DNA of 64,000 bases from an uncultured delta proteobacterium (GTDB lineage: Bacteria; Desulfobacterota; Desulfobulbia; Desulfobulbales; JAGXFP01), in assembly GCA_963807225.1 (NCBI GenBank), contig CAWEAD010000008.1:200586-264585 (forward strand), given 5' to 3'. Made by a program: the position numbers and the translations under genes. Positions 4,070 to 38,807 of the stretch are shown here, piece after piece (the stretch's first letter is position 1; every line of letters begins with the position of its first letter). The notes under the pieces are model-generated. The model saw nothing but the letters and a program-made list of their open reading frames with translations, was not told the origin of the DNA and did not search any database.

Positions 4070-5104
4070 TTATTCCGCGCCATCATGTCTAGAGGTAAAG
4101 AACTGGCATTCCAGGGCCATGGTGAAAACCCCGACTGCCTGACGGGTTTTCTGGTCTTCCTCCAGCGGCAAAAGCAATTCCGGTTCAATTTCGAAAAACA
4201 GCCACGGCCTCAGGAAATTCCGCCGGTAACGGCTGGCTATCCGGTAGGTGGTGATCAGATCCGGTCTGGTTAGTCCGTAGACGCCCAGATCAAGTGATAA
4301 GGCGCTCTTTGGGGTAAGTTGCCGGAAAAAACTGGTTTCCACCCCCCAGTGCAGACCGCTTTCGTTTTCCAGATAACTGGCGAAAAAGCTGAGCCGCCCG
4401 GTGATATTGGCCGGCAGCACTCTTTCCAGATCGAGGAGCGAGGTTTCACCGGAACCGTGCAAGGTGTTCCAGTAGGCGGTTTCCGACAGACGGACGACGT
4501 TGAGCTTGCCTAGATGCATCAGACGGATATAGCGAATTCTGATATAGCTCTCCATGGGCCAGCCCACGGTCAGTCCGCCGCCGAAATGAAAACGATCCCG
4601 CAAGGTTTTATAGATCATGTAACGCAAGCCCAGTGAGGTTTGTTCCTGGTCGTCCTCGGTTAGAAGACTGGAATCTAAGTTGTCCGGTCTGGGCTCCAAG
4701 TCATCGTATCGATTGCCGCCAAAGGCGATCAGGCGCAGGCGCCTGTTGACCCTGGGCAGAATCACGTTGGCATTGACTCGCACCGGGAACTTGAAGCCTT
4801 CGCCTTCGGTGAATCGGGCGGAGGTGCGCAAGCGGACATAGGTTGCGGGTGGATCATCGTCTTCTAATCGCCGATCGCCAAAAAAATTGTCGAACCAGAG
4901 GGTAGGACCCCGTAGTTTGTCTTCCAAATAAGTGTGATAGGTGTCGAGAAAACTCATGATCCGTCCGGAAGATCGGGGTTGTTCCGCCGAGGCGAAGCTT
5001 TCCTCACCCCGGGCCCTCGGGGCGCCGAAGGCGAGAATCAGCGTCAGGAAAAACAGGAAGGTTGCGGGTGCCAGCTTAAAGCGAGTAAATGAGAAGTTTC
5101 GCAT
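4070..5104 (-). CDS. hypothetical exported protein, probably an outer-membrane beta-barrel
   Basis: N-terminal signal peptide FLFFLTLILAFGAPRARGEE. Alternating hydrophobic/polar strands with an aromatic-rich C-terminus. No family recognised. Confidence 0.55.
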   Translation of the reverse strand: MRNFSFTRFKLAPATFLFFLTLILAFGAPRARGEESFASAEQPRSSGRIMSFLDTYHTYLEDKLRGPTLWFDNFFGDRRLEDDDPPATYVRLRTSARFTEGEGFKFPVRVNANVILPRVNRRLRLIAFGGNRYDDLEPRPDNLDSSLLTEDDQEQTSLGLRYMIYKTLRDRFHFGGGLTVGWPMESYIRIRYIRLMHLGKLNVVRLSETAYWNTLHGSGETSLLDLERVLPANITGRLSFFASYLENESGLHWGVETSFFRQLTPKSALSLDLGVYGLTRPDLITTYRIASRYRRNFLRPWLFFEIEPELLLPLEEDQKTRQAVGVFTMALECQFFTSRHDGAE

Positions 5105-5304
5105 TTTGTTTATTTAAACATCCCGGGGAGATTGTCACCGCTTTTTTTATGGGGCATCATGGGTTGTAGCCAATTCGGCGCCTCTCTCGGCGGTGATTGA
5201 CTTTGCTCGAATAATCAAGCATCGTGCCGTGTTGAAGGAAGGCGGATGTTGCCGGCGGGGTTTCGGGCAATCTTAGCAGTAATTTGATCGAGGAGAGATT
5301 TGAC

Positions 5305-5934
5305 ATGGGCTGGTTCAAAAACATAAACCGCAAGTTTTTTGCCGGATTGCTGGCTGTGTTGCCTATTCTGGCGACGATATATCTGTTCTATTGGGGGGTT
5401 ACCGCCATCGAAGGTGGGCTGGCGGCGATACTGGGGATCTTTCTGCCGGAAGGGGCCTATCGTCCCGGTCTCGGACTGGTGGCCGGGGTGGTGATCATCT
5501 TTCTGGTCGGGAATCTGGTCGAGACCTTTATGGTTCGTGATCTCCTGGCCAAGGTTGAAGAACTGATCCTGAAAATTCCTGTGGTCAAGATTGTCTACGG
5601 AGCCACTCGCGATCTGCTCTCTTTTATCTCGCGGGGCAAGGAACGTGGCGGTGGACAAACAGTCTGGGTTTCCCTGGGGGTGGGTGAGCTGGTGCTGCTG
5701 GGATTTGTAACCGGTGATGACTTGAGCGATTTTGGTGAAGATTTCCGTGAGATGATCACTGTGTATCTGCCTTTCAGCTACCAGATCGGTGGTTACACCG
5801 TGGTCGTTCCGCGCCGACGGGTGGTCCCGGCCGGGATTCCGTTCGAAAAAGCGATGCGTTTTGTTATGACCGCCGGAGTAATGGAAAGCAAGTCGCACCG
5901 GAGCCGAATGAAAACGGCGATGGAGAAGCCTTAA
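5305..5934 (+). CDS. DUF502-family membrane protein
   Basis: MGWFKNINRKFFAGLLAVLPILATIYLFYW... and IPVVKIVYGATRDL are typical of DUF502. ATG at 5305 is preceded by GAGGAG. The ORF track starts at an upstream TTG (5284). Confidence 0.7.
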   Translation: MGWFKNINRKFFAGLLAVLPILATIYLFYWGVTAIEGGLAAILGIFLPEGAYRPGLGLVAGVVIIFLVGNLVETFMVRDLLAKVEELILKIPVVKIVYGATRDLLSFISRGKERGGGQTVWVSLGVGELVLLGFVTGDDLSDFGEDFREMITVYLPFSYQIGGYTVVVPRRRVVPAGIPFEKAMRFVMTAGVMESKSHRSRMKTAMEKP

Positions 5935-9841: not shown

Positions 9842-9906
9842 TTGCAATCGGACTGACGGCTATTTATCATGGGGTGAAAGTGGAGCAAAAGGGTTTCTTT
9901 GTGGAA
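9842..9906 (+). promoter_or_regulatory. sigma70-type promoter plus phased G-rich repeats (candidate MraZ operator) for the mraZ-ftsA-ftsZ-like operon
   Basis: -35 TTGCAA (9842-9847), 17-nt spacer, -10 TATCAT (9865-9870), with an A/T-rich UP-like tract at 9811-9841. Pentamers TGGGG (9870), TGGAG (9881), GGGTT (9891) and TGGAA (9902) are phased at 10-11 bp. Confidence 0.5.
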
Positions 9907-9940
9907 TATATGCCCTGAGTAGGGTGGGAGATTGGCGGGA

Positions 9941-10408
9941 ATGGAACAATGCCTTTTCATCGGCACGCATAGTGCGGTACTGGACGAGAAGTCCAGGCTG
10001 GTGATGCCGGCAGGCTTCCGAAAGGACAATTCCGAGGCGGTGTTGAACGGCGATTTTTATATCACTTCACACCAAGAGGGTTTTCTTATTGTGCGTCCTG
10101 GGGTGGTCTGGGATGGTTATCTCCGTTCGATCGAGGCTGCCGTGGAGTTGGATGGGGTTCAGAAGCGCAAGTTCATCCGGCTGCTCTGTAATAATTCGGT
10201 CAAAATCAGGCTGGACAGCCAGTTCAGGGCGGTTCTCAGTCAGCCACTGCGCCGCAAACTGGCCTTCGATGACGAGGAACCGCGGCAGAAAGTGGTGGTG
10301 GTCGGTTGCGGTGATTTCCTGGAGGTTTGGCCGGAGAACCGTTACCGCGGCGAGGAAGATTCGACCCGTGAGCTGTCCGGCTTTATCAACGGCTTTGACG
10401 GCAGATGA
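9941..10408 (+). CDS. mraZ: MraZ-family transcriptional regulator (divergent), 155 aa
   Basis: Duplicated SpoVT/AbrB-type halves: FIGTHSAVLDEKSRLVMPAGFRK and RLDSQFRAVLSQPLRRKL...VVVVGCGDFLEVWPENRY. These align to E. coli MraZ [23 protein letters not shown] and MDGAGRLLIAPVLRQ...VMLVGQFNKFELWDETTW. Confidence 0.75.
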   Translation: MEQCLFIGTHSAVLDEKSRLVMPAGFRKDNSEAVLNGDFYITSHQEGFLIVRPGVVWDGYLRSIEAAVELDGVQKRKFIRLLCNNSVKIRLDSQFRAVLSQPLRRKLAFDDEEPRQKVVVVGCGDFLEVWPENRYRGEEDSTRELSGFINGFDGR

Positions 10409-10433: not shown

Positions 10434-11684
10434 ATGCTGACCAGACATACCAATATCACCACGGTCAACGTCGGTTCCGCCAATACCACGGCGGTGATCG
10501 CCGAGGTCGATAACGAAGGGCGGGCCGGCTTGCTGGGCTACGGGCAATGTGCCAGCGCCGGTTTGAGTGACGACTTGATCACCGATATCCGGGAACTGGG
10601 CAGGGCTATCGCGGAATGTGTCGGCCAGGCGGAAGAGATGGCGAAACAAAGCAGCGGACCTCTGATTCTGGCCATCGGCGGCGAACATGTTCGGATCTTG
10701 AACAGTCGGGACGGCATTGCCCTTAATCCGGGCGACGATGAACACCGCTCACGGAATATTACCCGGCAGGATATCAAAAAGGTTCTGGAAAAAGCCGGAA
10801 AGGTAATGCTGGCCATGGACTTGGAGCAGTTGCATGTCCTGCCGGTCAGTTTTCTGGTGGACGGCCGCCGGGTTAAAAATCCGGAAGGCATTGGCGGCAA
10901 CAGGCTGGATGTTGAGGTGCTGGTCATCGCCGGCCGGCAGACGATCATGCGGTCCCTGATGAAGGCTGCCGAATTTGGCGGCTACCGGGTGCGAAAGTTC
11001 TGTTATCGCCCATTGGCAACTTCCCGGGCCGTACTGAGTCTTGATGAACTTGACCGGGGAGCCTGTCTGATCGACATCGGCGGCCGCCATACCGATATTG
11101 CCCTTTTCAAGGAAAACCGGCTGCTTTATTCCTCGACCCTGGTACTGGGCGGCGCCAACATTACTTCGGATACCGGGCAGCTGCTGGCTATCAATCAGCA
11201 GGAAGCTGAAAAGATAAAATTGAAATATGGTTATTGCGGCACCCTGGCCGGAGAAGACCTGAAATTTCAGTTGAGCGGTGTGGGTGGCGATGGAGCCCTC
11301 TGGCGCCTGGTCCGAAAATCGGCCTTGGGAGTCGGCGTTATTCAGCCTCGGGTCGAGGAAATTTTCGACGAGTCGGTGGCGGCGCTGAAAGGCTACCTAG
11401 GCCGCGAACAGTGGACGGGCTGCGCGGCCTTGACGGGTGGAACTTCACAGCTTCCGGGAATCCGGGAACTGGCCAGGGCTAGATTACCGTTTATGGTAAA
11501 TGCCGGTAAAAATATCGTCTTTGACAATCTCGATGAAGAGTCCTCTCGGCCGGAATATGCCACGGTCCTGGGAATGGTGGCCTACGATACGGAGCAGCGT
11601 CTGAGCAGGCGTGAAGAGGTGCGTGATAATCCGATTACGCGCTGGTGCGACAAGATAATCAGACAAATCCACACGGTTTTGTAA
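10434..11684 (+). CDS. ftsA: FtsA-like actin-fold protein (divergent), 416 aa
   Basis: Actin/HSP70-fold phosphate motifs VNVGSANTTAVIAEV, LIDIGGRHTDIALF and LTGGTSQLPGIRELA. The C-terminal amphipathic tail ITRWCDKIIRQIHTVL is analogous to the FtsA membrane-targeting helix. Confidence 0.75.
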   Translation: MLTRHTNITTVNVGSANTTAVIAEVDNEGRAGLLGYGQCASAGLSDDLITDIRELGRAIAECVGQAEEMAKQSSGPLILAIGGEHVRILNSRDGIALNPGDDEHRSRNITRQDIKKVLEKAGKVMLAMDLEQLHVLPVSFLVDGRRVKNPEGIGGNRLDVEVLVIAGRQTIMRSLMKAAEFGGYRVRKFCYRPLATSRAVLSLDELDRGACLIDIGGRHTDIALFKENRLLYSSTLVLGGANITSDTGQLLAINQQEAEKIKLKYGYCGTLAGEDLKFQLSGVGGDGALWRLVRKSALGVGVIQPRVEEIFDESVAALKGYLGREQWTGCAALTGGTSQLPGIRELARARLPFMVNAGKNIVFDNLDEESSRPEYATVLGMVAYDTEQRLSRREEVRDNPITRWCDKIIRQIHTVL

Positions 11685-11706
11685 GCGTTTATTTGCGGGG
11701 GCCTCA

Positions 11707-13104
11707 ATGACGTCTGAAAACAACGGTTATAACTTCTCCCTGACCGAGTGCGGAAGTTCCACCAGGATGGTGGCTCTGGGCATCGGCGGTATGGGTAGCA
11801 ATGCCATGGAAAACCTGGCTCGGGCCGGTATCGATGGTATGGAACTTTTTTCCCTGAATACCGACCGTCAAGCCCTGGCTCATTGCCGGGGCAGCCAGCC
11901 GGTGCAGATTGGTGACAAGCGGACTGGCGGCAAGGGGGCCGGTGGCAACAGCGATGTGGGGCGGTTGTCGGCCGAAGACGATGTCGAGAAAATCCGCGGG
12001 ATCGTCAAGGGCGCCGAATTGGTCTTTATCGCCTCGGGTATGGGCGGAGGTACCGGTACCGGAGCGGCACCGGTAATCGCCAAGCTCTGCCGCGAACTCG
12101 GGATCATGTGTATCGGTACAGTGACTATGCCGCTCTCCTGTGAAGGTAGCAAAAGGAATGAGAAGGCAAGGGTCGGACTCGAAGAATTGCGGCAGCAAGT
12201 CGACTCTCTGTTGATAATTGAAAATGAAAACCTCCTGGCGGTTATGGGTGAGGAAGATGTCTCTATTAAGGAGGCTTTTCAGCAGGCCGATAACGTGCTG
12301 GTCAAATCGGTCAAGGCCATAACCACGATTATCGATGCCCACGGCTATATTAATCTGGACCTGGCCGACCTGCGCAACGTCCTGCAGCGGGGAGACAGTG
12401 AAAGAGGGGTCGATGCCTTTATCGGGATAGGAGAAGCCACCGGTGAAGACAGGGCCGTGCGGGCGGCGGATCTGGCCTTGCGCAATCCGCTGCTGCGACA
12501 GATCGATATCATGGGCGCTACCAACCTGCTGATCAATGTTGCCGGCAGCGAGGAGATGGGCCAGCGGGAGGCCATGCAGGCGGTTAAATGCGTGGTGGAT
12601 CGGGCCGGCGACCTGGATCGGGAAATATTCATGGGAGTTGTCACCGATAACTCCCTGGGAGATTCTCTCAGTGTCACTATCATAGCCACCGGTTTGCCTG
12701 ACGGCAATGGCCGGGTTATTCCCCTGGCCCGGGGGAATGCTGACCAATCGGAACTGATCATTGCGCCCGATAACCTTGAGATTCAGGCAACTGGTGCCAG
12801 TGCCTTGATGGGTCTGGTCGAAGAAGTAGCCGAGTCGGGTCATCCCTCGGCGATGGCGGAGATTGGCGGAGAAGTTGCATCATGCGCTCCGGATGGATTG
12901 GGGCGTTCCCCCTTGATCTGCAAAGTCGATTGGCAGACACCGGCCTATTTACGACGACGGAGTATAGCCAGGACGGCCGAAGCCGCGACCCCGGTTCCCA
13001 AGCTTAATAAAGCTGTCAGCCGCAATCGTGCTCCCGATAGCCATACCACATGCCTGGTAACGGGGAACCGCCCTTTTAGGCAACCCCTGTATAATCTAGC
13101 CTGA
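11707..13104 (+). CDS. ftsZ: FtsZ/tubulin-family GTPase (divergent), 465 aa
   Basis: Tubulin signature GMGGGTGTGAAP, T7 loop NLDLADL, NTDRQAL, VDSLLIIENENLL. Roughly 35-40% identity to E. coli FtsZ by eye. An internal PAYLRRR motif resembles the FtsA-binding C-terminal peptide. Confidence 0.85.
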   Translation: MTSENNGYNFSLTECGSSTRMVALGIGGMGSNAMENLARAGIDGMELFSLNTDRQALAHCRGSQPVQIGDKRTGGKGAGGNSDVGRLSAEDDVEKIRGIVKGAELVFIASGMGGGTGTGAAPVIAKLCRELGIMCIGTVTMPLSCEGSKRNEKARVGLEELRQQVDSLLIIENENLLAVMGEEDVSIKEAFQQADNVLVKSVKAITTIIDAHGYINLDLADLRNVLQRGDSERGVDAFIGIGEATGEDRAVRAADLALRNPLLRQIDIMGATNLLINVAGSEEMGQREAMQAVKCVVDRAGDLDREIFMGVVTDNSLGDSLSVTIIATGLPDGNGRVIPLARGNADQSELIIAPDNLEIQATGASALMGLVEEVAESGHPSAMAEIGGEVASCAPDGLGRSPLICKVDWQTPAYLRRRSIARTAEAATPVPKLNKAVSRNRAPDSHTTCLVTGNRPFRQPLYNLA

Positions 13105-13349
13105 GGCCAAATCCTCCTCCTCCTGGCTGCGTGGCCTGTTGCACCTATCTCTTAGTTGTCTCAGGCTACGCAGCCAGGCCTTACCCTCCAACACCAACAA
13201 CCGGCCGGCATTAGACCTTGGCAGATTGCTCGAACCGGTGTACGCCTGTCTTGAACAATTACACTTAAAAACGGTTCTGACCGGTTGCCAATGGCTTAAG
13301 GGATATAACCTTTCAGCTATTGATCGAGTCGGAAAGAGACGAAGTCGGT

Positions 13350-14657
13350 ATGCTAGAGAACCCCAGGACAGGATTGCTTAAAGCAATATTCAACCGGCGG
13401 ATGTTGATATGTCTGTTCAACGGACTGGCCGCGGGGATGCCGCTTTTCTTTCTCTACCATTTAATCCCGGCCTGGTTGCGGAGCGAGAATGTCGATCTGA
13501 AAACAATCGGTCTGTTTTCCCTGGTCGGTATCCCCTACACCTGGAAGTTTCTCTGGTCGCCGCTGATGGACCGGTTCTCGCTCCCCTTTCTTGGGCGGCG
13601 GCGCGGTTGGATGCTACTTACCCAACTGGTCCTGCTCGGTACCATGATGTCGATAGGACTTCTCCACCCTGCCCACCAGATTCTGTTGATTGCCGCCATG
13701 GCGGTGGTTGTGGCTTTTTTTTCGGCGAGCCAGGACATCGTTCTGGATGCCTACCGGCGGGAATTGTTACCGGATAACGAACTGGGGTTGGGTAATTCCA
13801 TGTACGTCAATGGATACCGGGCCGCAGTCTTCATTCCTGGCGGTCTGGGTCTGATTTTGGCCGATCATTTAAGCTGGCCGCTGGTCTTTATGGTTATCGG
13901 CGCCTTCATGCTGATCGCCATCGCAAAAACCCTATTGATCAAAGAAGCTTATACCAGCGTGGCCCAGCCGGTAACCCTGGCCGCGGCCGTGGTCAAACCT
14001 TTTCGGGAATTTTTCGGCCGGGAAGGGGGTGTCAGGCAGGCGCTCCTGATTCTGGCTTTTCTCTTCTTCTACAAGTTGGGCGACAACATGGCGACCGCCT
14101 TGTCAACTCCGTTTTATCTCGATTTGGGATTTTCTAAAACCATCATCGGATCAATGGTTAAATTAGTGAATTTCTGGGCGATGCTGGTTGGCTCTTTTAT
14201 CGGTGGCGCAATGATATATAGAATCGGCATCAACCGGTCGCTCTGGGCTTTCGGACTGGTACAGATGCTGTCTATTCTGGGTTTTGCCTGGTTGGCCGAG
14301 GTCGGCGACAATGTCGTGTTATTGGGAGGGGTGATCGGTTTTGAGTATTTGGGGGTCGGACTGGGGACGGCGGCCCTGGTAGCCTACATGGCCCGGTTAA
14401 CCAACAAGGATTTCACCGCCACCCAATTCGCCCTGCTTTCCAGCCTGGTTGCACTGCCCCGCAGTTTCGCTAATGCCAGCACAGGATTTCTGGTCGAAGG
14501 TATCAAGGCCGGTGATGGGATATACTTCAAGATTTTCGGAGCCTGGAATGGGCTGGGATATAGCCGGTTTTTCATCTTCTGCACCATTTGCGCCATTCCC
14601 GGAATGATATTGTTGAAGTGGGTCGCACCCTGGCCCGACAGGGGACAACGTAAATAA
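13350..14657 (+). CDS. ampG: AmpG-family MFS permease (muropeptide transporter)
   Basis: GLAAGMPLFFLYHLIPAWLRSENVDLKTIGLFSLVGIPYTWKFLWSPLMDRF is the hallmark AmpG N-terminus. About 12-14 TM helices. ATG at 13350 lies within an ORF that opens at TTG 13320. Confidence 0.85.
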   Translation: MLENPRTGLLKAIFNRRMLICLFNGLAAGMPLFFLYHLIPAWLRSENVDLKTIGLFSLVGIPYTWKFLWSPLMDRFSLPFLGRRRGWMLLTQLVLLGTMMSIGLLHPAHQILLIAAMAVVVAFFSASQDIVLDAYRRELLPDNELGLGNSMYVNGYRAAVFIPGGLGLILADHLSWPLVFMVIGAFMLIAIAKTLLIKEAYTSVAQPVTLAAAVVKPFREFFGREGGVRQALLILAFLFFYKLGDNMATALSTPFYLDLGFSKTIIGSMVKLVNFWAMLVGSFIGGAMIYRIGINRSLWAFGLVQMLSILGFAWLAEVGDNVVLLGGVIGFEYLGVGLGTAALVAYMARLTNKDFTATQFALLSSLVALPRSFANASTGFLVEGIKAGDGIYFKIFGAWNGLGYSRFFIFCTICAIPGMILLKWVAPWPDRGQRK

Positions 14658-15116
14658 GAGAGGATGGTCGCGATTTGCTGGTGTGGAGAAGAAGTAATAG
14701 CCTTCATGTTTTCAACTTCTACATCACACTGCAATGACACAGTTGCTTCATCAGTTAAATTACAGGTAATGACGAACTTATTGAAACGTTGCTTCCCTGA
14801 CAATTTTTTGTTATTATTCTAAGTGCTTAAAAAGTTGTTGATATCAATGCGTTAAGGGTAAAATCTCAGATGATGGCGAGATCCGATAACGGATTTTATA
14901 GCCTTTCCGGAGATCTTGATTCAAGCCTTAACTGACTGAAAAATTCAATGGTTAGTACAGGTTATGCTTTACTTGCTTCTGCGACGCTGTTATTGTCACT
15001 TTGATTGCAATAGCAGACAAATCCGCGACTAAACTACTGCTGTCAAGTAAAGCAACTACGTGGTTCAGCCGGCTGGATTTCAACCGGGTCCGCTTGTCGG
15101 GAGGGAGAGGGGGAAG

Positions 15117-17216
15117 ATGATCGGTAAAAGAATCAGTCAATGTTGTTATCTTGTTCTGGCCCTGGCACCATTTTTCTGGGGCTGTTCTGCCGGACAGGGA
15201 GACTTCGTTAAACATGTCGATAGTGAGACGGCCAACTATGTCATTTCTCCCTCAGACACCGGGTTTCTGGCTGACGGCCAATCGCGGGAGACTATCTATT
15301 TCAAGAAAGGGGAAGGTGAGCTCATCCGGCTTTCCCCATATCCTGCCTCGGAGCGTGTCGGCAAGACAACCAAGGAAGTTCTGACTCCGGTCCAGGCCGA
15401 CTTCAAGGCGGCCGATACGCCTGAAAAACTGGCAACCTTCATCGAGCGGTATGCCCCGGACGAGTTGGCTTTTGTGGCCGTGCAACGGTTGGCGCAATCG
15501 GCCCTGATGGCGAAAAAATGGAATGAAGCAAAGTCCATATTCACCTCCTTTCGTGACCGTTTTCCAAACAAGGCCTCGGATTTCAATACCATAATCTCTC
15601 TGCTGGAAGCACCGGATACCGAACTGGCTGTAGACAATCTTGGACCGAACATCAATACCGGTGAAGGCGAGTATGCACCTGTGCTTTCGGCCGATGGAAA
15701 GAAAATGCTCTTTGCCCGGGATTGCGGGGTATGTGATGGCGGTGAGGAGGTATACACCTCCAGTCTGGACCAATCGGGATTCTGGCGGCTGGCCACCCCT
15801 TTCGGGCCACCCTTGACCAGCAAAGGTAATGAAGTACCCCTGGCCCTGTCGGCGGACGGTAATACTCTGGCGGTTTATGGCAATTATCCGCAATCTCTGG
15901 GGCGGGGAGATATCTTCTACCTGAACAAGACTCAGGAAGGCTGGACCGGTCTTAAGCATTATCCGGCCCCACTTAACAGTGAATACTTTGATAGCAACGC
16001 CATGTATCCAGCCGACGGCAAGGCCATACTATTCGTCTCCGAACGTCCAGGTGGGGTCGGCGACCTGCACGAGAAGGGCAAATTCTTCCACGGCGGCTAC
16101 GACGGCAATACCGATATTTATGTTTACCTTCCGAAAGCGGATGGCGGCGGGGAGGTAATCAACCTGGGCCAGGTCATCAATACCCCCTATGCCGAGTATT
16201 CTCCCTTCCTCCATCCGGACGGCAAGACCCTTTATTTCAGTTCCGATGGCCATGCCGGCCTGGGAGGGTTGGATGTGTTCAAGTCCACCCGCTTAAGCAG
16301 CGATTCCTGGACCGAGTGGAGTGAACCGGTCAATCTGGGCAAGGAAATCAACACTCCGGATAACGATTGGGGATATCAGTTCCCCGCTGCCGGCGAAAAG
16401 GCTTATTTTGCCGTGAGTAACCGCTCGAACGGTTTTGGTGGCAGCGATATCTATTCGATCGAGCTGCCTCCTGCAGCTAAGCCCAGCACGGTCATTACAA
16501 TTTACGGCACGGTAACCGATCCCGACGGTAAGTTCCTGGCCGCCGATATCCGCTGGAACGATATCGATGCCGGCAAGGAAGTGGGTGAGGCCACCAGCGA
16601 TCCCCAGACCGGAGAGTTCGTCATCAATCTGCCGGGTGGCGGCATATATGGTTATTATGCCGAAAAACCAGGTTACATGGGAGAATCTGAACATGTCGAC
16701 CTGACCGAGGATCTCGGTTATCGCGAGTATGCCGTAGATATTGTGCTCTATCCCATTCCCCAACCAACGACCCCCGAAGTAGCAGCCGAAGAGCCGGCAC
16801 CGCCGCCCGAGGTCGCGCCGGTTGAGCCGAAGCCCGAGCCGGCTCCGGAAGTGGTGGCGGTGATCCGCATGAATAATATCTTTTTCGATTTCGACAAAGC
16901 CACTTTGCGCAATGAGTCGCGTATGGAGCTTGACCGATGGGTGAGGATGCTTAAGGAGAATCCGGCAATCAGCCTGGAAATCGCCGGCCATGCCGATAGT
17001 GTCGGCACCGAACCATACAACCAGAAGCTCTCCGAGCGTCGCGCTCAGGCCGTTTGCAACTATCTGGTCGAGCAGGGTATCGATCGTGGACGACTGGTGG
17101 CCAAGGGCTTTGGAGAGTTGCAGCCGGAGGCCTCCAATGACACCGAGGAGGGTAGGCAACGTAACCGGCGGGTCGAGGTGAAAATACTTAACAACGGTAA
17201 TGGACGGATGAAATAA
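15117..17216 (+). CDS. OmpA-family lipoprotein with TolB-like (PD40) beta-propeller repeats, CarboxypepD_reg-like domain, Pro-rich linker and C-terminal OmpA peptidoglycan-binding domain
   Basis: Lipoprotein-like signal LALAPFFWGCSAG. Repeated xxYAPVLSADGKKMLFAR / AEYSPFLHPDGKTLYFSSDG PD40 motifs. C-terminal NNIFFDFDKATL...GHADSVGTEPYNQKLSERRAQAV...NRRVEV is an OmpA_C signature. SD GGGAGAGGGGGAAG precedes ATG 15117. Confidence 0.85.
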   Translation: MIGKRISQCCYLVLALAPFFWGCSAGQGDFVKHVDSETANYVISPSDTGFLADGQSRETIYFKKGEGELIRLSPYPASERVGKTTKEVLTPVQADFKAADTPEKLATFIERYAPDELAFVAVQRLAQSALMAKKWNEAKSIFTSFRDRFPNKASDFNTIISLLEAPDTELAVDNLGPNINTGEGEYAPVLSADGKKMLFARDCGVCDGGEEVYTSSLDQSGFWRLATPFGPPLTSKGNEVPLALSADGNTLAVYGNYPQSLGRGDIFYLNKTQEGWTGLKHYPAPLNSEYFDSNAMYPADGKAILFVSERPGGVGDLHEKGKFFHGGYDGNTDIYVYLPKADGGGEVINLGQVINTPYAEYSPFLHPDGKTLYFSSDGHAGLGGLDVFKSTRLSSDSWTEWSEPVNLGKEINTPDNDWGYQFPAAGEKAYFAVSNRSNGFGGSDIYSIELPPAAKPSTVITIYGTVTDPDGKFLAADIRWNDIDAGKEVGEATSDPQTGEFVINLPGGGIYGYYAEKPGYMGESEHVDLTEDLGYREYAVDIVLYPIPQPTTPEVAAEEPAPPPEVAPVEPKPEPAPEVVAVIRMNNIFFDFDKATLRNESRMELDRWVRMLKENPAISLEIAGHADSVGTEPYNQKLSERRAQAVCNYLVEQGIDRGRLVAKGFGELQPEASNDTEEGRQRNRRVEVKILNNGNGRMK

Positions 17217-17767: not shown

Positions 17768-19117
17768 TTAAAGCAGAGCTGGTTGCAGTTCGTCGCTTAA
17801 GATGATCGATCTGTCCGCGATCAGCTCATCCGTCTGACCTGTGCGCAGATTGTCTTCCAGTCCGGCGACAACCAAGCTTAGTGCCTGCAGATCAGCTCCG
17901 GCCAGAGTGGATTTCGGCTGAAATTTAAGGGCGAAGGGGTTTTTGAAGATCCCGTGGTGCTGCAGGCGGTAATCCAGATGCGGACCGGTGGCCAGGCCGG
18001 TCGAGCCGACGTAGCCGATTATCTGTTTTTGTTTGACCTGACTACCGACCTTGAGTCCTGATTTAAATTTCGAGAGGTGACCGTAATAGGTCCGGTAATC
18101 GCCGCCATGGGCCAAGACAAGCTGTTTACCGAACCCACCGTGATTGCCGATGGACACGACCCGGCCATCGGCGGCTGCCATGATCGGCGTGCCAGTGGGG
18201 GCGGCCAGATCGACTCCTAGGTGCTGCCTGACCACGCCGAGGATGGGATGCAGGCGATGATGGCTGAAGCGGGAGCTCACCCGTCCCATCGCGACCGGTG
18301 AGCGGATGAAGGAGGCACCGAGTTCATGACCTTCGGCGTCGTAATAGTTGAATTTTTTGCCGTCAGGGCTGAAGCGGAAGGCCTGCAGGATCTCGCCGTC
18401 GCTTTTCTCATAACGGGCCGCCAATATCGGGCCATAGCCGATAAACTCATTGGAGCGGTAATATTCTTCGATGATCAGGCTGAAAAGATCACCTTCTCTT
18501 GTTTCGGTATTGAAATCGAGCTTGGCGGCAAAGATATCGGCGAAGGCATAAATCGGTTTCGGGTTCTGCAAATCGTCGGGGAAGGCTGCGAACAGGGATG
18601 TGGTTATCCGCCCCTTTAACAGGATAGTTCGAACCTCAAGGTGAACTTCGTCGCGGGAGACTATCAGGCCGTCATCGGAGGGAATGGCGGTATAACTGGT
18701 AAACTGGTTCACCTGGTAATCGGCTTTGACGATCCGGCCCTCCGGATTCAGGATTATGGAATATCGGTCTCCCGGGTGAATCTTGTTGAAATCCAGGGAA
18801 TTCTTGAAAGCCTGCAAAAAACGGGCACGGATCTCGCCGGGAATGTCGTGGGCGCTGAAGGAGCGGTCCAGGGTGTCACCGGATTGGATGGTGCCCTGAA
18901 ATTCAATATATCCCGCTTGGGTAAGATCGGCCAAACTATCGGGAATCTGGTCGGGTATTTGGGTATTATGGGAGGATGGGATGGAGGCCTTGGCGTTGCG
19001 CGGATTTGCGTCACCGCCGGGTTCAGGTAAGTAGTTAATAAAAAGCAGTGTTAAACAGATGAAGAAGGTAATGGTCAGGAAGTGGAACGATTTTATGAAG
19101 TTTTTCAAAGACTGCAT
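17768..19117 (-). CDS. M23-family peptidoglycan metalloendopeptidase with N-terminal membrane anchor
   Basis: HLGVDLAAPTGTPIMAAADGRV (HxxxD) and GSTGLATGPHLDYRL (M23 C-terminal His motif). N-terminal TM FLTITFFICLTLLFI. ATG 19117 is preferred over the upstream TTG 19159. Confidence 0.85.
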   Translation of the reverse strand: MQSLKNFIKSFHFLTITFFICLTLLFINYLPEPGGDANPRNAKASIPSSHNTQIPDQIPDSLADLTQAGYIEFQGTIQSGDTLDRSFSAHDIPGEIRARFLQAFKNSLDFNKIHPGDRYSIILNPEGRIVKADYQVNQFTSYTAIPSDDGLIVSRDEVHLEVRTILLKGRITTSLFAAFPDDLQNPKPIYAFADIFAAKLDFNTETREGDLFSLIIEEYYRSNEFIGYGPILAARYEKSDGEILQAFRFSPDGKKFNYYDAEGHELGASFIRSPVAMGRVSSRFSHHRLHPILGVVRQHLGVDLAAPTGTPIMAAADGRVVSIGNHGGFGKQLVLAHGGDYRTYYGHLSKFKSGLKVGSQVKQKQIIGYVGSTGLATGPHLDYRLQHHGIFKNPFALKFQPKSTLAGADLQALSLVVAGLEDNLRTGQTDELIADRSIILSDELQPALL

Positions 19118-19552
19118 CGTTGTGGTACCTGGTTGACAGGTCAAGATTGTCGGCTGCAAGCCGAGTTAGATGTAAATCACCTTTTAACTGAATCGCCGCA
19201 TAAGTAAACACTTATTTTCCTACCTCGTACCCTCCGAGAGGCCGACAATCTTGGAACCAGGACAAATTTATCTAATGATTACAAATGGTTATTATATAAG
19301 CAAATTGGGATCACTTCCCGCTCGGGCAGACGAAGCTGAAAGTAAAGATATCACTGGGCTTTGCCGTTGATGGTTTAGTAACGGTCCGGATGTACCGGCC
19401 CAAAGTACCTGGGACGCCGGAAAATCTCCTAGTCATTTTCCGAAAATACTGTTAATAAATGGGGCTGTTTGCATGGTGCCCGGCCTGTCCGGCCTGGCCT
19501 GTACGGGGGTCCCCTTGGGACCGGCAAATCCGACGAACTGGTAAATGAAAAA

Positions 19553-24155: not shown

Positions 24156-25289
24156 CTATAGTTTGCCCAGGACCGACCACATGATGCCGGCGGCGATAGC
24201 CGAGCCGATCACCCCGGCCACGTTGGGGGCCATGGCATGCATCAGCAGGAAGTTTTCCGGATCTTCTTTCTGGCCAACCATCTGCACCACCCGGGCCGAG
24301 TCTGGTACGGCCGAGACTCCGGCGGCGCCGATCAGCGGGTTGATCTTCTCTTTCAGGAAAAGATTCATGAATTTGGCGAAGAGCACTCCGCCCATGGTGG
24401 CTATCACGAAGGAGAAGGCGCCCAGTCCGAAGATCAACATCGACTTGGGGGTCAGGAAGGTCTGGGCCTGGGTGGAGGCGCCGACCGTGAAGCCCAGGAG
24501 GATGGTGACGATATCGATCAGGGCGTTGCGTGCGGTCTTGGCCAGCCGCTCGGTCACTGTGCTTTCCTTCAACAGGTTACCGAAGAAGAGCATGCCGAGC
24601 AGGGTCATCGAACCAGGGGCGATCAGGGCGCAGACCAGGAAGGCAACGATGGGGAAAATGACCTTCTCCCTCTTGGAGACGATCCGGGGGGGCTTCATCC
24701 TGATCAGCCGTTCCTCCTTGCTGGTCAGCAGGTACATGACCGGAGGCTGGATCACCGGCACCAGAGCCATATAAGAGTATGCTGCAATGGCAATAGGGCC
24801 CAGGAGATCCGGGGCCAGCATTGATGCCAGGAAGATGGCGGTCGGGCCGTCGGCCCCGCCGATGATGCCGATTGCCCCGGCCTGGGCGGCGGAAAAGCCC
24901 AGGAGCAGCGAACCCAGCAGGGTGATGAAGATGCCGAGCTGGGCGGCGGCCCCCAGCAGGATCAGCTTCGGGTTCGAAAGCATGGTGGAGAAATCGGTCA
25001 TCGCCCCGATACCAAGGAAAATCAGGGGCGGATAGATGCCCTTGACCACCCCGAAGTAGAGGTAGGAGAGGGCGCTGCCGGAGTCGTAAACACTCAGCGC
25101 CATACCGTTGATAGGCGGGATGTTGCCGACCAGGATGCCAAAGCCGATGGGCACCAGTAGGAGCGGCTCGTAATCCTTGGTGATGGCCAGGAAGATGAAG
25201 ATGATCCCGATCAGGATCATCATCCCGTTGCCCCATTCCAGGGAAGCGAAACCGGAGTTTTTAAGAAAGGACAGGCTTTCCAGATTCAC
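24156..25289 (-). CDS. mmdB: Na+-translocating decarboxylase beta subunit (OadB/MmdB/GcdB family)
   Basis: 377-aa polytopic membrane protein. GIGAMTDFSTMLSNPKLILLGAAAQLGIF and AAGVSAVPDSARV match the OadB family. It is the last gene of the methylmalonyl-CoA operon. Confidence 0.85.
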   Translation of the reverse strand: MNLESLSFLKNSGFASLEWGNGMMILIGIIFIFLAITKDYEPLLLVPIGFGILVGNIPPINGMALSVYDSGSALSYLYFGVVKGIYPPLIFLGIGAMTDFSTMLSNPKLILLGAAAQLGIFITLLGSLLLGFSAAQAGAIGIIGGADGPTAIFLASMLAPDLLGPIAIAAYSYMALVPVIQPPVMYLLTSKEERLIRMKPPRIVSKREKVIFPIVAFLVCALIAPGSMTLLGMLFFGNLLKESTVTERLAKTARNALIDIVTILLGFTVGASTQAQTFLTPKSMLIFGLGAFSFVIATMGGVLFAKFMNLFLKEKINPLIGAAGVSAVPDSARVVQMVGQKEDPENFLLMHAMAPNVAGVIGSAIAAGIMWSVLGKL

Positions 25290-25305
25290 GGTTTGACTGC
25301 CTCGC

Positions 25306-25740
25306 TCATTCGATGATCACCAGTTCCTGGCCCTGATTGACGGTATCGCCGTCGCGGACCAGGATCTTCTTGACGATGCCCTCGTGCTTGGCATTGATCT
25401 TATTTTCCAACTTCATGGCCTCCATGATCAGGAGCTTCTGGCCGGCGGCGACCCGGTCGCCTTCCCGCACGAAGATTGATTTGATCTGTCCGGGCATGGG
25501 CGCGGTGATGGCGCCGTCACCGGTTCGCGTCACCGGTTGGCGGTAGGTAGGGGGCTGCCGGGAAGGGGTTTCTGCGGCGCCAAGTTGCGAGATTGGTTGG
25601 GGCAGGGAAAGGTTTTTGATGGCCTGGATTTCGACCAGATGGTCGTGGCCGTTGACCTCAACCTGGATATCCCGGGGGGTGACGTTCTTGATCACCACTT
25701 CGTAGAGCCGCTCATTGATCTTCAATTCATATTTCTTCAT
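25306..25740 (-). CDS. mmdC: biotin carboxyl-carrier subunit (MmdC/OadA-C-terminal type)
   Basis: C-terminal biotinyl domain ITAPMPGQIKSIFVREGDRVAAGQKLLIMEAMKLENKI with the (E)AMK biotinylation motif. Confidence 0.85.
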   Translation of the reverse strand: MKKYELKINERLYEVVIKNVTPRDIQVEVNGHDHLVEIQAIKNLSLPQPISQLGAAETPSRQPPTYRQPVTRTGDGAITAPMPGQIKSIFVREGDRVAAGQKLLIMEAMKLENKINAKHEGIVKKILVRDGDTVNQGQELVIIE

Positions 25741-25746
25741 GACCTT

Positions 25747-26154
25747 CTATCTCCTGGGCGGGCTGAGCCGGCCGTGCAGGTTCATGGCTTCGAAGCGTCC
25801 GGCCCGCTGCCATGAGGAATCCCAGAGCTCGTGGCGCTTCCAGGTGATCTTCCGGTTGTCGTGGCTGCTGAACTGATGCAGGTGCAGGGCTACGGCTACC
25901 GCCAGCAGGGTCTCGGTGTCGAGCAGTTCTCCCGTCGGAGTTCCGCCTGCGGCATCAACCGGCCGAGCCCTAGGCAGGGCACTATTCTTCAGGTGGCTGG
26001 CCCAGAACAGCAGTTTGGGCAGCAGGGCGATATAGATGGCGATCACCCCCAGACCGATAAAGACGACAATCATTCCCACCAGGCTGAATTCCAGGGCATT
26101 GAAGCGGGAATCGACCAGACTGGCGAAATTCGGTTGTATAAAGTTGAAGTCCAC
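25747..26154 (-). CDS. OadG-like small membrane subunit of the decarboxylase (MmdD/OadG-type anchor)
   Basis: Single N-terminal TM LVGMIVVFIGLGVIAIYIALL as in the OadG family. It sits between the carboxyltransferase and biotin-carrier genes. The C-terminal half is not recognised. Confidence 0.55.
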   Translation of the reverse strand: MDFNFIQPNFASLVDSRFNALEFSLVGMIVVFIGLGVIAIYIALLPKLLFWASHLKNSALPRARPVDAAGGTPTGELLDTETLLAVAVALHLHQFSSHDNRKITWKRHELWDSSWQRAGRFEAMNLHGRLSPPRR

Positions 26155-26165
26155 GCGCTACTCCT

Positions 26166-27706
<1,541 letters not shown>

Positions 27707-27710
<4 letters not shown>

Positions 27711-28132
27711 TCGTCGTGCTCCTTATCTCTCCCGGCTGGAGAGCAGAATTCGGTCAGTACGCCGTGGCTGGACTTCGGGTGGAGAAAGGCCACTTGTTTA
27801 CCCCCGGCCCCGATAATCGGCGTTTCGTTGATCAGTCGACAGCCGGCCGCTGCCGCCCGGGACAGTTGCTCGTCGAGAGCATCGGTCCGGTAGGCCACGT
27901 GATGGATACCCTCGCCCCGAGTTTCCAAAAACTTGGCGATGGGGCTGTCCGGCGCGGTCGGCTCCAATAGTTCAATGTGTACCTCGCCGACCCGGTAAAA
28001 GGCGGTGCGCACCTTTTGGCTCGCCACCTCCTCGATTTTTTCGCAGACCAAACCTAGCACATTTTCATAAAATAGTCCGGCCTTTTCCAGACTGTGTACG
28101 GCGATTCCCAGATGATCGATCTTGGTCAGCAT
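27707..28132 (-). CDS. mce: methylmalonyl-CoA epimerase (VOC/glyoxalase fold)
   Basis: [27 protein letters not shown]...[12 protein letters not shown]...[14 protein letters not shown] is a typical epimerase pattern. 4-nt overlap with mmdA. Confidence 0.85.
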
Positions 28133-28144
28133 ATTCTTTCCTCG

Positions 28145-29797: not shown

Positions 29798-30732
29798 CTT
29801 TTCTGCCCGGTCAAACCGGCAACCAGATTACCGGCTAACTGCCGGGGATCTTCGCTGGTCCAGGATTCAGCCGGGCCCAGCATCTTTTCCAAGCGGGGTC
29901 GCAACATCTCCAAGGCCCAGTCCACCACCTCCAGACGTTGGGCGCGACTCCTTTTGGCCTGGTGTTCGCCGCTTTGCCGCCGACCGGCGTCAAGTCGGTC
30001 GAGGGTGGCGGCCAATTCGGCAACCCCGATATTTTCGCTGGCGGTGGTCATACTGACCCGGGGAAGTGAATCCGGTAGGGCAGGGCGGTCGCGAGTGGCG
30101 GTTTCCAAGTCCAGGGCCAGGGCTTCGGCGCCCGGACAATCCGCTTTGTTAATCACCAGCAGATCGGCCACTTCCAGCAGACCGGCCTTCATGGCCTGGA
30201 TATCATCGCCTTGGCCGGGTGCGACCACCAGGGCAGTGAGATCGGCCAGCCTGACAATGTCCATCTCCGACTGGCCGACACCAACCGTCTCGATGATAAT
30301 CACCGAGCAGCCGGCCGCGGCCAGCACCCGGACCGTAGCGCCGGCTGCGGCGCAGAGTCCGCCCAAGCGTCCTCGAGTTGCCATGGAGCGCATGACCACA
30401 TCATGATCAAGCGCGTGATCCATCATCCTGATCCGGTCGCCCAGCAAGGCGCCGCCGGAAAGCGGCGAACTGGGGTCGATGGCTACCACGCCGACCCGTT
30501 CGCCCTGACGGCGATAATGGCCGATGAGCCGGCCAGTCAGGGTAGACTTGCCGGCACCGGGAGGACCGGTTATCCCGTACACTCTGGCCTGAGCGATCAG
30601 CCCCCGGTCCAGGCCGGCCAGGATCTTTCCCGTCTCGGGGGCGCCGCTTTCGATCAGGGAGATGGCCCGGGCGATGGCTCGCGGATCGCGGCGCCGCACT
30701 CCGTCAATGAGGGTGGCAGGGGTTGGCATCAT
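29794..30732 (-). CDS. meaB: methylmalonyl-CoA mutase-associated GTPase MeaB (ArgK family)
   Basis: P-loop [27 protein letters not shown]. Located between the two mutase subunit genes. Confidence 0.9.
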
Positions 30733-30734
30733 TA

Positions 30735-31322: not shown

Positions 31323-31342
31323 GATGCTACTCCGTAAAGAGT

Positions 31343-38788: not shown

Positions 38789-38807
38789 TAATGTGTGAAA
38801 GTTTATA

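What the first reader, a model, noticed from the sequence alone, without database searches (positions are those of the whole stretch)
11707..13104. FtsZ-like protein with altered nucleotide-binding loops and an internal, not terminal, FtsA-binding-like peptide
Seen: the T1 loop reads IGGMGSNAM (canonical VGGGG(G/S)NAV). The next loop reads GGKGAGGNSDVG (canonical KGLGAGANPEVG). TKPFxFEG is TMPLSCEG. There is a ~6-aa insertion (RGDSERGVD) before the IGIGEATGEDRA segment. A PAYLRRR motif at 12940-12960 resembles the conserved C-terminal peptide D/E-I/L-PAFLR-K/R that binds FtsA/ZipA. Here it is followed by 47 further residues, where a canonical FtsZ has about 10 or fewer. The T7 catalytic residues (NLDLADL) are retained, so GTPase-driven polymerisation is plausible.
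Basis: partly seen in the sequence, partly recalled or inferred. Interest (0 to 1): 0.55.

Follow-up and report, generated by a model that had tools for sequence, protein, structure and literature searches.

The report
Divergent FtsZ in mini mraZ-ftsA-ftsZ operon
This is a real, working-looking member of a small, previously undescribed branch of the cell-division protein FtsZ, found only in uncultured sulfur bacteria, which sits in its own three-gene operon and carries an unusual extra tail; whether it is the cell's only FtsZ or a second one could not be settled.

Summary
ORF 11707-13104 encodes a 465-aa protein with a confident FtsZ fold, an intact G-box and intact T7 catalytic residues.

The gene is third in a compact operon: mraZ-like, ftsA-like, ftsZ-like. 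A sigma-70-like promoter with four MraZ-type boxes drives it. This trio, with no mur or ftsQ genes, is conserved in every related locus examined.

PAYLRR is homologous to the canonical C-terminal peptide. One relative still ends just after it. The extension beyond it keeps a constant length of 47-51 aa and ends in a conserved (Y/F)RQPLYxMA(G/S) motif. In 126 canonical FtsZ the tail is 19 aa or less, apart from one 142-aa outlier that looks like a false motif match.

The core is under purifying selection (dN/dS 0.06). Even so, FtsZ and FtsA diverge much faster than neighbouring housekeeping genes.

The nearest cultured relative lacks the block at the syntenic site. I could not test whether the same genomes also carry a canonical ftsQAZ. 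I lean slightly towards a second, lineage-specific FtsA/FtsZ module (0.5) over a sole, fast-evolving FtsZ (0.4).

The parts
9842..9870 (+). sigma-70-like promoter TTGCAA-17 nt-TATCAT, preceded by a T-run
   Evidence: Found by the consensus scan. The T-run, TTGCA and -10 element are conserved in L081, L082, L084 and L088.
9870..9904 (+). four MraZ-box-like repeats (TGGG, GTGG, AGGG, GTGG) with a 10-11 nt period, immediately after the -10 element
   Evidence: Sequence read. The repeats are conserved in the relatives. They match the published operator of three or four GTG(G/T) boxes with 6-nt spacers (PMC12957436). Binding was not tested.
9932..10408 (+). mraZ-like gene (probable true start is the ATG at 9941)
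   Evidence: Pfam MraZ 47.4 bits against a cut-off of 23. TIGR00242 scores 51 against a cut-off of 98, so it fails the equivalog threshold. Both DxxxR motifs are present (LDEKSR, LDSQFR). dN/dS is 0.028 against L215.
10434..11684 (+). ftsA-like gene
   Evidence: TIGR01174 scores 256 against 176, and the SHS2 (1C) domain is present. It forms its own family at 45-100% identity, then drops to 33% or less against canonical FtsA.
11637..11681 (+). C-terminal amphipathic helix of the FtsA-like protein (TRWCDKIIRQIHTVL), a probable membrane-targeting sequence
   Evidence: Highly conserved across the family. Hydrophobic moment is 0.78, reached by 0.3% of shuffles.
11707..13104 (+). ftsZ-like gene (the finding itself)
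   Evidence: Pfam Tubulin and FtsZ_C domains. TIGR00065 scores 299.3 against a cut-off of 295.2. PDB FtsZ hits reach E 7e-73. AF2 core pLDDT is about 90, and the best structural matches are all FtsZ.
11779..11802 (+). T1 loop GIGGMGSN, with family-specific Met29
   Evidence: Invariant across the 28 aligned family sequences. Met at this position occurs only in the family and its sisters among 181 cores.
12352..12369 (+). T7 loop NLDLAD, with the catalytic Asp residues retained and a family-specific Phe-to-Leu change
   Evidence: N216, D218 and D221 are invariant. Canonical FtsZ reads NLDFAD in 135 of 181 cores, and NLDLAD occurs only in the family.
12385..12408 (+). 5-6 residue insertion (QRGDSERG) between helix H8 and the next strand
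   Evidence: Seen in the alignments, and modelled as a loop by AF2. 22 of 28 relatives have Cys where the window has G234.
12700..12900 (+). disordered C-terminal linker (residues 332-398)
   Evidence: pLDDT is below 50. dN/dS is 0.57, close to neutral.
12901..12960 (+). conserved segment GRSPLICKVDWQTPAYLRRR, the internalised homologue of the FtsZ C-terminal peptide
   Evidence: G399, S401, P402, W409, P412 and R416 are invariant. dN/dS is 0.083. AF2 predicts a helix at 413-427. The motif is still terminal in P0055.
12961..13101 (+). 47-residue basic tail (in the 50 residues from R416: 10 K/R against 2 D/E), held at constant length across the family
   Evidence: Tail length is 47-51 residues in almost all members, against 19 or fewer in 125 of 126 canonical FtsZ. 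dN/dS is 0.20. AF2 models it as disordered. Charge counted.
13075..13101 (+). terminal motif FRQPLYNLA, family consensus (Y/F)(R/Q)(Q/E)(P/A)(L/V)(Y/L)x(M/L)A(G/S/C) at the C-terminus
   Evidence: Conserved at the extreme C-terminus of almost all members. dN/dS is about 0.11 over 10 codons.
13320..17216 (+). ampG and a PD40/OmpA-domain gene, which follow the trio within the window's own clade only
   Evidence: Identified. Conserved downstream in L081, L082 and L215, but not in L084 or L088.

Best explanation
The ORF encodes a functional FtsZ of a distinct subfamily, which I call 'GGMG-type'. It is restricted to a clade of uncultured Desulfobulbales that NCBI labels Desulfurivibrionaceae or Desulfobulbaceae.

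It is made from a self-contained operon. A sigma-70-like promoter is overlapped by four MraZ boxes, followed by mraZ-like, ftsA-like and ftsZ-like genes. The MraZ-like protein therefore probably autoregulates the trio.

The FtsZ-like protein keeps everything needed for GTP-dependent head-to-tail polymerisation. Its internal SPLxxKxEWxxPAYLRR segment is the old C-terminal peptide. I infer that it docks onto the co-evolving FtsA-like protein, whose conserved C-terminal amphipathic helix would tether the filaments to the membrane.

The family has added a basic spacer of constant length, about 47 residues, ending in a new conserved motif, (Y/F)RQPLYxMA. The constant spacing suggests a second docking site for another partner. 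An ssrA-like C-terminal degron that sets protein level is an alternative. Both are inferences.

I commit, narrowly, to the view that this trio is an additional lineage-specific FtsA/FtsZ module and not the housekeeping divisome core.
For: Shown:
- FtsZ fold and catalytic motifs.
- The trio is conserved in all six independent contexts examined.
- Promoter and boxes are conserved and match published MraZ operators.
- Purifying selection acts on the core (dN/dS 0.059), the C-terminal-peptide segment (0.083) and the terminal motif (about 0.11), while the linker is nearly neutral at 0.57.
- The FtsA-like C-terminal helix is amphipathic and conserved.
- The tail has constant length and a conserved end.

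Evidence for 'additional module':
- Window against L081: AspK 82%, CimA 78% and AmpG 68% identity, but FtsZ only 50% (core 60%) and FtsA 45%.
- Window against L215: FtsZ is the least conserved of six genes. In canonical loci FtsZ is usually among the best conserved.
- FtsA-like and MraZ-like proteins are also far from canonical.
- No ftsQ, mur or other dcw genes lie in the 64-kb window.
- The sister trios sit in different contexts, next to two toxin-antitoxin pairs in L084 and a RecD-like helicase in L088.
- Thiovibrio frasassiensis (AspK 80%) and Desulfobulbaceae DB1 have SpoU-M23-AspK-CimA at the syntenic site but no block.
- No Thiovibrio protein appears among the 120 best FtsZ hits, although that genome's proteins are named in the database.
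- Cultured Desulfobulbus species keep an E. coli-like dcw cluster (PMC7873302).
Against: No genome was shown to contain both this trio and a canonical ftsQAZ, so the same-genome test could not be run.

Several observations fit an essential single-copy operon equally well:
- By the AspK tree, contigs carrying the trio form one clade, and the branching order agrees with FtsZ-like divergence, which indicates long vertical inheritance.
- The trio's GC content tracks each host locus.
- The trio combines exactly the 5' end (Pmra and mraZ) and the 3' end (ftsA-ftsZ) of a dcw cluster. A single rearrangement of the only copy could produce that.
- A second MraZ recognising GTGG-type boxes would be expected to cross-talk with a resident dcw promoter.

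The rate argument rests partly on general knowledge of how conserved FtsZ is, and the in-session calibration is noisy. FtsA binding, MraZ binding and the tail's function are all untested.
Confidence: 0.5

Rival explanations
1. It is simply the only FtsZ of this clade. One rearrangement separated rsmH...ftsQ from the dcw cluster and left Pmra-mraZ fused to ftsA-ftsZ. The division pair then evolved quickly together. On this view the trio is the housekeeping divisome core, and the loop variants and tail are lineage quirks of an orthologue.
For: All functional hallmarks are retained and under purifying selection. The CTP, the FtsA membrane helix and canonical-type MraZ boxes are present. The carriers form a monophyletic, vertically inherited group with host-like GC. 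TIGR00065 is passed, and NCBI names most members 'cell division protein FtsZ'. No canonical FtsZ labelled Desulfurivibrionaceae was seen. Mollicutes show that an mraZ-(mraW)-ftsA-ftsZ mini-cluster can be the sole one (PMC8475190).
Against: Divergence is unusually fast for an essential FtsZ/FtsA pair relative to its neighbours. The trio occupies several different genomic contexts, including next to toxin-antitoxin genes. It is absent from the syntenic site of the nearest cultured relative, whose own FtsZ is not of this type. These organisms are walled (AmpG and an M23 peptidase are present), unlike Mollicutes.
Confidence: 0.4
2. It is a cytoskeletal module belonging to a mobile element, a plasmid or phage segregation or defence function, similar in role to TubZ or PhuZ.
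For: The sister trios lie beside toxin-antitoxin pairs and a RecD-like helicase. The block is an insertion or deletion relative to Thiovibrio and DB1.
Against: There is no relative in IMG/VR. Plasmid hits are all below 60% identity and are ordinary FtsZ copies. No PADLOC hits were found for the trio. The structure matches FtsZ, not TubZ. The flanks are syntenic housekeeping genes within the clade, and GC is host-like. No integrase or repeat boundaries were seen.
Confidence: 0.05
3. It is a degenerating or non-polymerising FtsZ relic whose loop changes have abolished GTPase activity.
For: There are substitutions in the T1, T3, T5 and T7 regions, and the TIGR00065 score is marginal.
Against: Core dN/dS is 0.059. 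The G-box and T7 Asp residues are invariant in 28 of 28 sequences. The substitutions themselves are conserved rather than scattered, and the operon partners are also constrained.
Confidence: 0.03

Closest known systems
Canonical bacterial FtsZ (TIGR00065; E. coli, B. subtilis, S. aureus)
   Same: The two-domain fold, the G-box GGGTGTG, the T7 NxDxxD loop, a disordered linker, a PAFLR-type conserved peptide, and a position immediately downstream of an ftsA gene.
   Different: About 40-44% core identity and only just above the equivalog cut-off. It has family-specific GGMG, GKGAGGNS, T(M/T)P(M/L)xCEG and NLDLAD motifs, a 5-6 residue insertion after H8, and three or four conserved cysteines. The conserved peptide is internal and followed by about 47 residues and a second conserved terminal motif. 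No ftsQ or mur genes lie upstream.
Mollicute minimal dcw operon mraZ-mraW-ftsA-ftsZ with MraZ boxes (Mycoplasma genitalium; PMC8475190, PMC12957436)
   Same: A short operon that begins with mraZ, is preceded by three or four GTG(G/T) boxes with a 10-nt period, and ends in ftsA-ftsZ.
   Different: Here mraW/rsmH is absent. The host is a walled Desulfobulbales bacterium with peptidoglycan-recycling genes next door. The FtsZ also has the extended tail.
Known extra FtsZ copies: FtsZm of Magnetospirillum, FtsZ2/FtsZ1/FtsZ3 of rhizobia and Agrobacterium, plasmid-borne ftsZ, archaeal FtsZ1/FtsZ2 (from general knowledge; plasmid copies seen)
   Same: If it is a paralogue, it would be another lineage-specific extra FtsZ that retains the GTPase core.
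   Different: As I recall them, those paralogues usually lack the C-terminal peptide, a dedicated FtsA, or both. This one keeps the peptide, has its own co-evolving FtsA and its own MraZ-type regulator, and gains a tail.
C-terminal variable region (CTV) of FtsZ, which tunes lateral interactions in B. subtilis and E. coli (from general knowledge, not checked here)
   Same: The sequence after the conserved peptide is basic here, as in the B. subtilis CTV.
   Different: It is 47 residues long rather than 4-19, has fixed length, and ends in a conserved hydrophobic motif. That suggests a specific docking or degradation signal and not only a charge effect.
TubZ, PhuZ, CetZ and FtsZl-1/FtsZl-2 (distant tubulin-superfamily members)
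   Same: They share the superfamily GTPase fold.
   Different: It is not a member of these groups. All of the top 50 structural matches and all sequence matches are bona fide FtsZ, and the FtsZ_C domain is present.

Membership tests
FtsZ (TIGR00065 / Pfam Tubulin + FtsZ_C) | Tubulin/FtsZ GTPase domain with the G-box GGGTG(T/S)G | tested here: met
   PF00091 at E 3e-37. GMGGGTGTG is invariant in the family.
FtsZ (TIGR00065 / Pfam Tubulin + FtsZ_C) | FtsZ C-terminal subdomain | tested here: met
   PF12327 at 70.9 bits against a cut-off of 27. The AF2 model superposes on solved FtsZ at TM 0.92.
FtsZ (TIGR00065 / Pfam Tubulin + FtsZ_C) | T7 synergy loop NxDxxD with the catalytic Asp residues | tested here: met
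   NLDLAD, with N216, D218 and D221 invariant.
FtsZ (TIGR00065 / Pfam Tubulin + FtsZ_C) | Score above the curated equivalog cut-off | tested here: met
   299.3 against 295.2 bits, which is marginal. NCBI names member P0051 only 'FtsZ family protein'.
FtsZ (TIGR00065 / Pfam Tubulin + FtsZ_C) | Conserved peptide (PAFLR-type) at the extreme C-terminus, with a tail of about 20 residues or fewer | tested here: not met
   The motif is present but internal, with 47 residues after it. Of 126 canonical FtsZ, 125 have 19 or fewer and the median is 5.
FtsZ (TIGR00065 / Pfam Tubulin + FtsZ_C) | Encoded at the 3' end of a dcw cluster, after ftsQ-ftsA | tested here: not met
   ftsA is upstream, but mraZ directly precedes it, and no ftsQ, mur or rsmH genes occur in the window or in related loci.
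FtsZ (TIGR00065 / Pfam Tubulin + FtsZ_C) | GTP-dependent polymerisation and a role in the Z-ring | not testable with these tools
   Needs biochemistry and localisation experiments.
FtsZ as the sole or housekeeping copy | No other FtsZ in the same genome | not tested
FtsA (TIGR01174), for the partner protein | Actin-like fold with the SHS2/1C domain, and a score above the cut-off | tested here: met
   256 against 176 bits. PF02491 and PF14450 are both hit.
FtsA (TIGR01174), for the partner protein | C-terminal amphipathic membrane-targeting helix | tested here: met
   The last 15 residues have a hydrophobic moment of 0.78, reached by 0.3% of shuffles, and are conserved across the family. Membrane binding itself was not tested.
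FtsA (TIGR01174), for the partner protein | Binds the FtsZ conserved peptide | not testable with these tools
   Inferred only from gene adjacency and parallel divergence.
MraZ (TIGR00242 / PF02381), for the regulator | Two MraZ/AbrB-type repeats with DxxxR motifs | tested here: met
   PF02381 at 47.4 bits against 23, matched in two stretches. LDEKSR and LDSQFR are present.
MraZ (TIGR00242 / PF02381), for the regulator | Equivalog score | tested here: not met
   51.1 against 98.35 bits.
MraZ (TIGR00242 / PF02381), for the regulator | First gene of the operon, preceded by three or four GTG(G/T) repeats with a 10-nt period | tested here: met
   Boxes at 9870-9904, after the -10 element, conserved in the relatives. 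The operator definition is from PMC12957436.

The most novel reading that the evidence does not exclude
A clade of free-living, walled Desulfobulbales carries a second, autonomous division-type cytoskeleton alongside the ordinary divisome. It has its own MraZ-family repressor, its own membrane-tethering FtsA, and an FtsZ with two C-terminal docking or degradation signals held at fixed spacing. Its four conserved cysteines might add redox control. Such a module could drive a conditional or alternative mode of membrane constriction.
Probability: 0.45. Interest if true: 0.65.

Novelty: new variant of a known kind. Interest (0 to 1): 0.45.

Why it matters
FtsZ, FtsA and MraZ are among the most studied bacterial cell-biology proteins. 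Natural variants that rearrange their interaction modules are useful test cases.

This family offers three things:
- A natural experiment in which the FtsA/ZipA-binding peptide is internal and followed by a second conserved terminal motif at fixed distance. This allows a direct test of how C-terminal architecture controls tethering, bundling or turnover.
- A minimal MraZ-controlled ftsA-ftsZ operon in a walled bacterium, which is useful for studying MraZ regulation without the mur genes.
- If it is a paralogue, a rare case of a complete duplicated regulator-tether-filament set.

If it turns out to be the sole FtsZ, it still shows that the supposedly ultra-conserved FtsZ/FtsA pair can evolve as fast as average proteins in a free-living lineage.

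Tried and rejected
- **Metagenome scan wasted.** My pattern for GYINLDLAD used YTN for Leu, which also encodes Phe. It matched ordinary NLDFAD FtsZ, and only L129 was a family member.
- **Window source not retrievable.** Look-ups of the window's own FtsZ and FtsA returned 'not on record', so the source assembly could not be searched for a second FtsZ.
- **Canonical FtsA lead failed.** Looking up the best canonical FtsA hit, P0172, to reach a Desulfobulbales dcw cluster gave an unrelated compact dcw with a PASTA-domain PBP.
- **Contig-length matching failed.** Matching contig lengths between hit lists to find a canonical FtsZ or FtsA on a trio-bearing contig gave no matches.
- **Tail-only search.** A search of 1.84 billion representatives with the tail alone found only two family fragments, so there is no evidence that the motif occurs in other proteins.
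- **Mobile-element checks.** Viral, plasmid and defence origins were checked and rejected.
- **Rfam.** It found only two tRNAs.
- **Literature.** Searches for a second FtsZ in Desulfobulbaceae or Desulfurivibrionaceae found nothing. Cable-bacteria papers discuss only an ordinary ftsA-ftsZ.
- **Rate calibration.** The dN/dS calibration on canonical loci is contaminated by shadow ORFs and by linker regions, so I use it only qualitatively.
Full report
**Observation**

It hits Pfam Tubulin/FtsZ (E 3e-37) and FtsZ_C. It passes the NCBIfam FtsZ equivalog only marginally, at 299.3 bits against a cut-off of 295.2. It matches solved FtsZ structures at E 7e-73 over residues 20-330.

An AlphaFold2 model built with 28 family sequences is confident over the core. 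Most 10-residue blocks between residues 21 and 330 have pLDDT of 80-95. The top 50 PDB matches are all bacterial FtsZ, at TM 0.92 and rmsd 2.2 A.

All quoted motifs and coordinates check out. PAYLRRR is residues 412-418 (nt 12940-12960), and 47 residues follow it. The 379-aa ORF on the opposite strand (11704-12843) is a shadow of this gene.

**A family, not a one-off**

A search of 5.8 billion proteins found about 55 clusters with 45-83% full-length identity. After that, hits drop sharply to ordinary FtsZ, at about 45% identity over the core only. Named members are all MAG proteins labelled Desulfobulbaceae, Desulfurivibrionaceae, Desulfobulbales or Thermodesulfobacteriota.

The family shares the following features:
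- GGMG in the T1 loop
- GKGAGGNS
- T(M/T)P(M/L)xCEG
- NLDLAD in T7
- a 5-6 residue insertion after helix H8
- a conserved segment, G-x-SPL-x-x-K-x-E-W-x-x-PAY-x-R

Among 181 FtsZ cores extracted from fetched loci, Met at the T1 position and Leu in NLDLAD occur only in this family and its sisters. The G-box and the T7 residues N216, D218 and D221 are invariant.

**The C-terminus**

The internal PAYLRR is the homologue of the canonical C-terminal peptide. It aligns with the PAFLR-type motif of ordinary FtsZ. In the sister protein P0055 the protein still ends 8 residues after PAFLRR.

In nearly all other members the motif is followed by 47-51 residues. The protein then ends in (Y/F)(R/Q)(Q/E)(P/A)(L/V)(Y/L)x(M/L)A(G/S/C), which reads FRQPLYNLA in the window. 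In 126 ordinary FtsZ with a recognisable peptide the tail has a median of 5 residues. 125 of them have 19 or fewer, and the one 142-residue value looks like a chance internal match of the pattern.

AF2 predicts a helix at 413-427 and disorder elsewhere. Counted from R416, the last 50 residues hold 10 K/R against 2 D/E. A search of 1.84 billion representatives with the tail alone found nothing outside the family.

**Operon and regulation**

The gene is third in a tightly packed trio: mraZ-like (9932/9941-10408), ftsA-like (10434-11684) and ftsZ-like. The same trio, with no rsmH, mur or ftsQ genes, occurs in every related locus examined:
- L081, L082 and L215, from the window's own clade
- L084 and L088, from sister lineages

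L086 is cut off at the ftsA gene, so it shows only ftsA-ftsZ.

Upstream lies a sigma-70-like promoter, TTGCAA-17-TATCAT, at 9842-9870. Immediately after it come four GTGG/GGG boxes with a 10-11 nt period (9870-9904), conserved in the relatives. This matches the published MraZ operator of three or four GTG(G/T) boxes with 6-nt spacers (PMC12957436). The MraZ-like protein keeps both DxxxR motifs but fails the equivalog cut-off.

The FtsA-like protein forms its own family too, at 45-100% identity before a drop to 33% or less. It ends in a highly conserved, strongly amphipathic helix. The likely mechanism is therefore an autoregulated operon that makes a GTP-dependent filament, tethered to the membrane through FtsA-like protein bound at the internal peptide. 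The binding steps are inferred, not shown.

**Selection and rate**

Against the collinear relative L215 (dS 0.4-0.8), dN/dS values are:

| Region or gene | dN/dS |
|---|---|
| FtsZ core | 0.059 |
| FtsZ linker | 0.57 |
| FtsZ peptide segment | 0.083 |
| FtsZ tail | 0.20 |
| FtsZ terminal motif | about 0.11 |
| FtsA | 0.085 |
| MraZ | 0.028 |
| CorA | 0.080 |
| AmpG | 0.068 |

The gene is clearly functional.

FtsZ is nevertheless the least conserved of the six genes overall. Against the most distant clade member, L081, identities are:

| Gene | Identity to window |
|---|---|
| AspK | 82% |
| CimA | 78% |
| AmpG | 68% |
| MraZ-like | 66% |
| FtsZ | 50% (core 60%) |
| FtsA | 45% |

In ordinary dcw loci FtsZ is usually among the best conserved genes (noisy). 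From general knowledge its core changes far more slowly than this.

**Distribution**

An aspartokinase search and tree show that trio-linked contigs form one clade, whose branching agrees with FtsZ-like divergence. The nearest cultured organism is Thiovibrio frasassiensis (AspK 80%), which falls outside that clade.

The syntenic site in Thiovibrio, and that of Desulfobulbaceae DB1, has SpoU-M23-AspK-CimA. Neither has the mraZ-ftsA-ftsZ-ampG-PD40/OmpA block. No Thiovibrio protein appears among the best 120 FtsZ hits.

Sister trios sit in other contexts, beside two toxin-antitoxin pairs (L084) or a RecD-like helicase (L088). The trio's GC content tracks each host locus. No relative was found in IMG/VR or on plasmids, and there are no defence-system hits for the trio. 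Cultured Desulfobulbus species keep an E. coli-like dcw cluster, and cable bacteria have an ordinary adjacent ftsA-ftsZ (PMC7873302).

**What remains open**

The decisive question is whether these genomes also contain a canonical ftsQAZ. I could not answer it. Both large-collection scans were lost to unspecific patterns, and the window's own proteins are not retrievable.

Evidence favouring a second, lineage-specific module:
- the fast rate of divergence
- the divergence of all three proteins from their canonical counterparts
- the varied genomic contexts
- the absence of the block from the nearest cultured relative

Evidence favouring a sole, rearranged and accelerated orthologue:
- the clean vertical inheritance
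- the full set of functional hallmarks
- the fact that the trio is exactly the two ends of a dcw cluster

I put these at about 0.5 and 0.4.

**Verdict**

This is a genuine, selected FtsZ of a distinct, apparently undescribed subfamily. It has an internalised FtsA-binding-type peptide and a new fixed-length tail with a conserved end, and it sits in a minimal MraZ-controlled operon. I class it as a new variant of a known kind. It is of moderate interest now, and would be more interesting if the same-genome census shows that it coexists with a canonical divisome.

Noticed in passing
window 11707-13104 (residues C60, C128, C145; G234 in the insertion): The family has four conserved cysteine positions: C60 in 28/28 sequences, C128 in 27/28, C145 in 23/28, and a Cys in the H8 insertion in 22/28 (Gly in the window). 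Family and sister cores carry 3-6 Cys, while ordinary FtsZ cores have a median of 1. A redox or metal site is possible. Distances in the model could not be measured.
   Followed up: partly
window 37781-42312: A low-GC stretch (37.7% at 38-40 kb against about 55% elsewhere) encodes glycosyltransferases and CDP-glycerol glycerophosphotransferase-like proteins. It looks like an acquired surface-polysaccharide island.
   Followed up: no
window 24156-35377 (- strand): A cluster for the methylmalonyl-CoA pathway: OAD beta subunit, carboxyltransferase, methylmalonyl-CoA mutase, MeaB, a B12-binding subunit, succinyl-CoA synthetase and an acetyl-CoA-synthetase-like enzyme. It is consistent with propionate metabolism of the Desulfobulbus type.
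   Followed up: no
L082 13205-17104 compared with window 56535-58146: In the P0036 genome the trio-ampG-PD40/OmpA block is followed directly by a pseudouridine synthase and CoaE. In the window those two genes lie about 40 kb downstream. A large rearrangement has therefore moved the AspK region relative to the block.
   Followed up: partly
L111 250-2710, L160 7519-9983, L128 2551-4478: Unrelated metagenome contigs carry two tandem FtsZ genes. Adjacent FtsZ duplicates therefore do occur in other bacteria.
   Followed up: no
P0026 (ENA contig of 71,014 bp): One family member is only 371 aa long and ends shortly after the core, without the conserved peptide or tail. It could be a frameshift, a pseudogene or an assembly error.
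   Followed up: no
L091 (GCA_000315315.2, contig AMWB02141024.1): The same aspartokinase protein (P0291) and the same neighbouring gene order as in Desulfobulbaceae DB1 also occur in a second assembly. Its contig numbering (AMWB02141024) suggests a very large, probably non-bacterial assembly, so contamination or a symbiont is possible.
   Followed up: no
window 4070-5104 (-), 5215-5898 (-), 58143-59147 (-): Three sizeable ORFs have no Pfam family at E 1e-4 or better.
   Followed up: no
window 15060-17216 and 17768-19159: Directly downstream of the trio and ampG lie a PD40 (TolB-like) / OmpA-domain protein and an M23 peptidase with a Csd3-like domain. This gives the neighbourhood a cell-envelope and septum-remodelling theme. 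The M23-SpoU pair is also present in relatives that lack the trio.
   Followed up: partly
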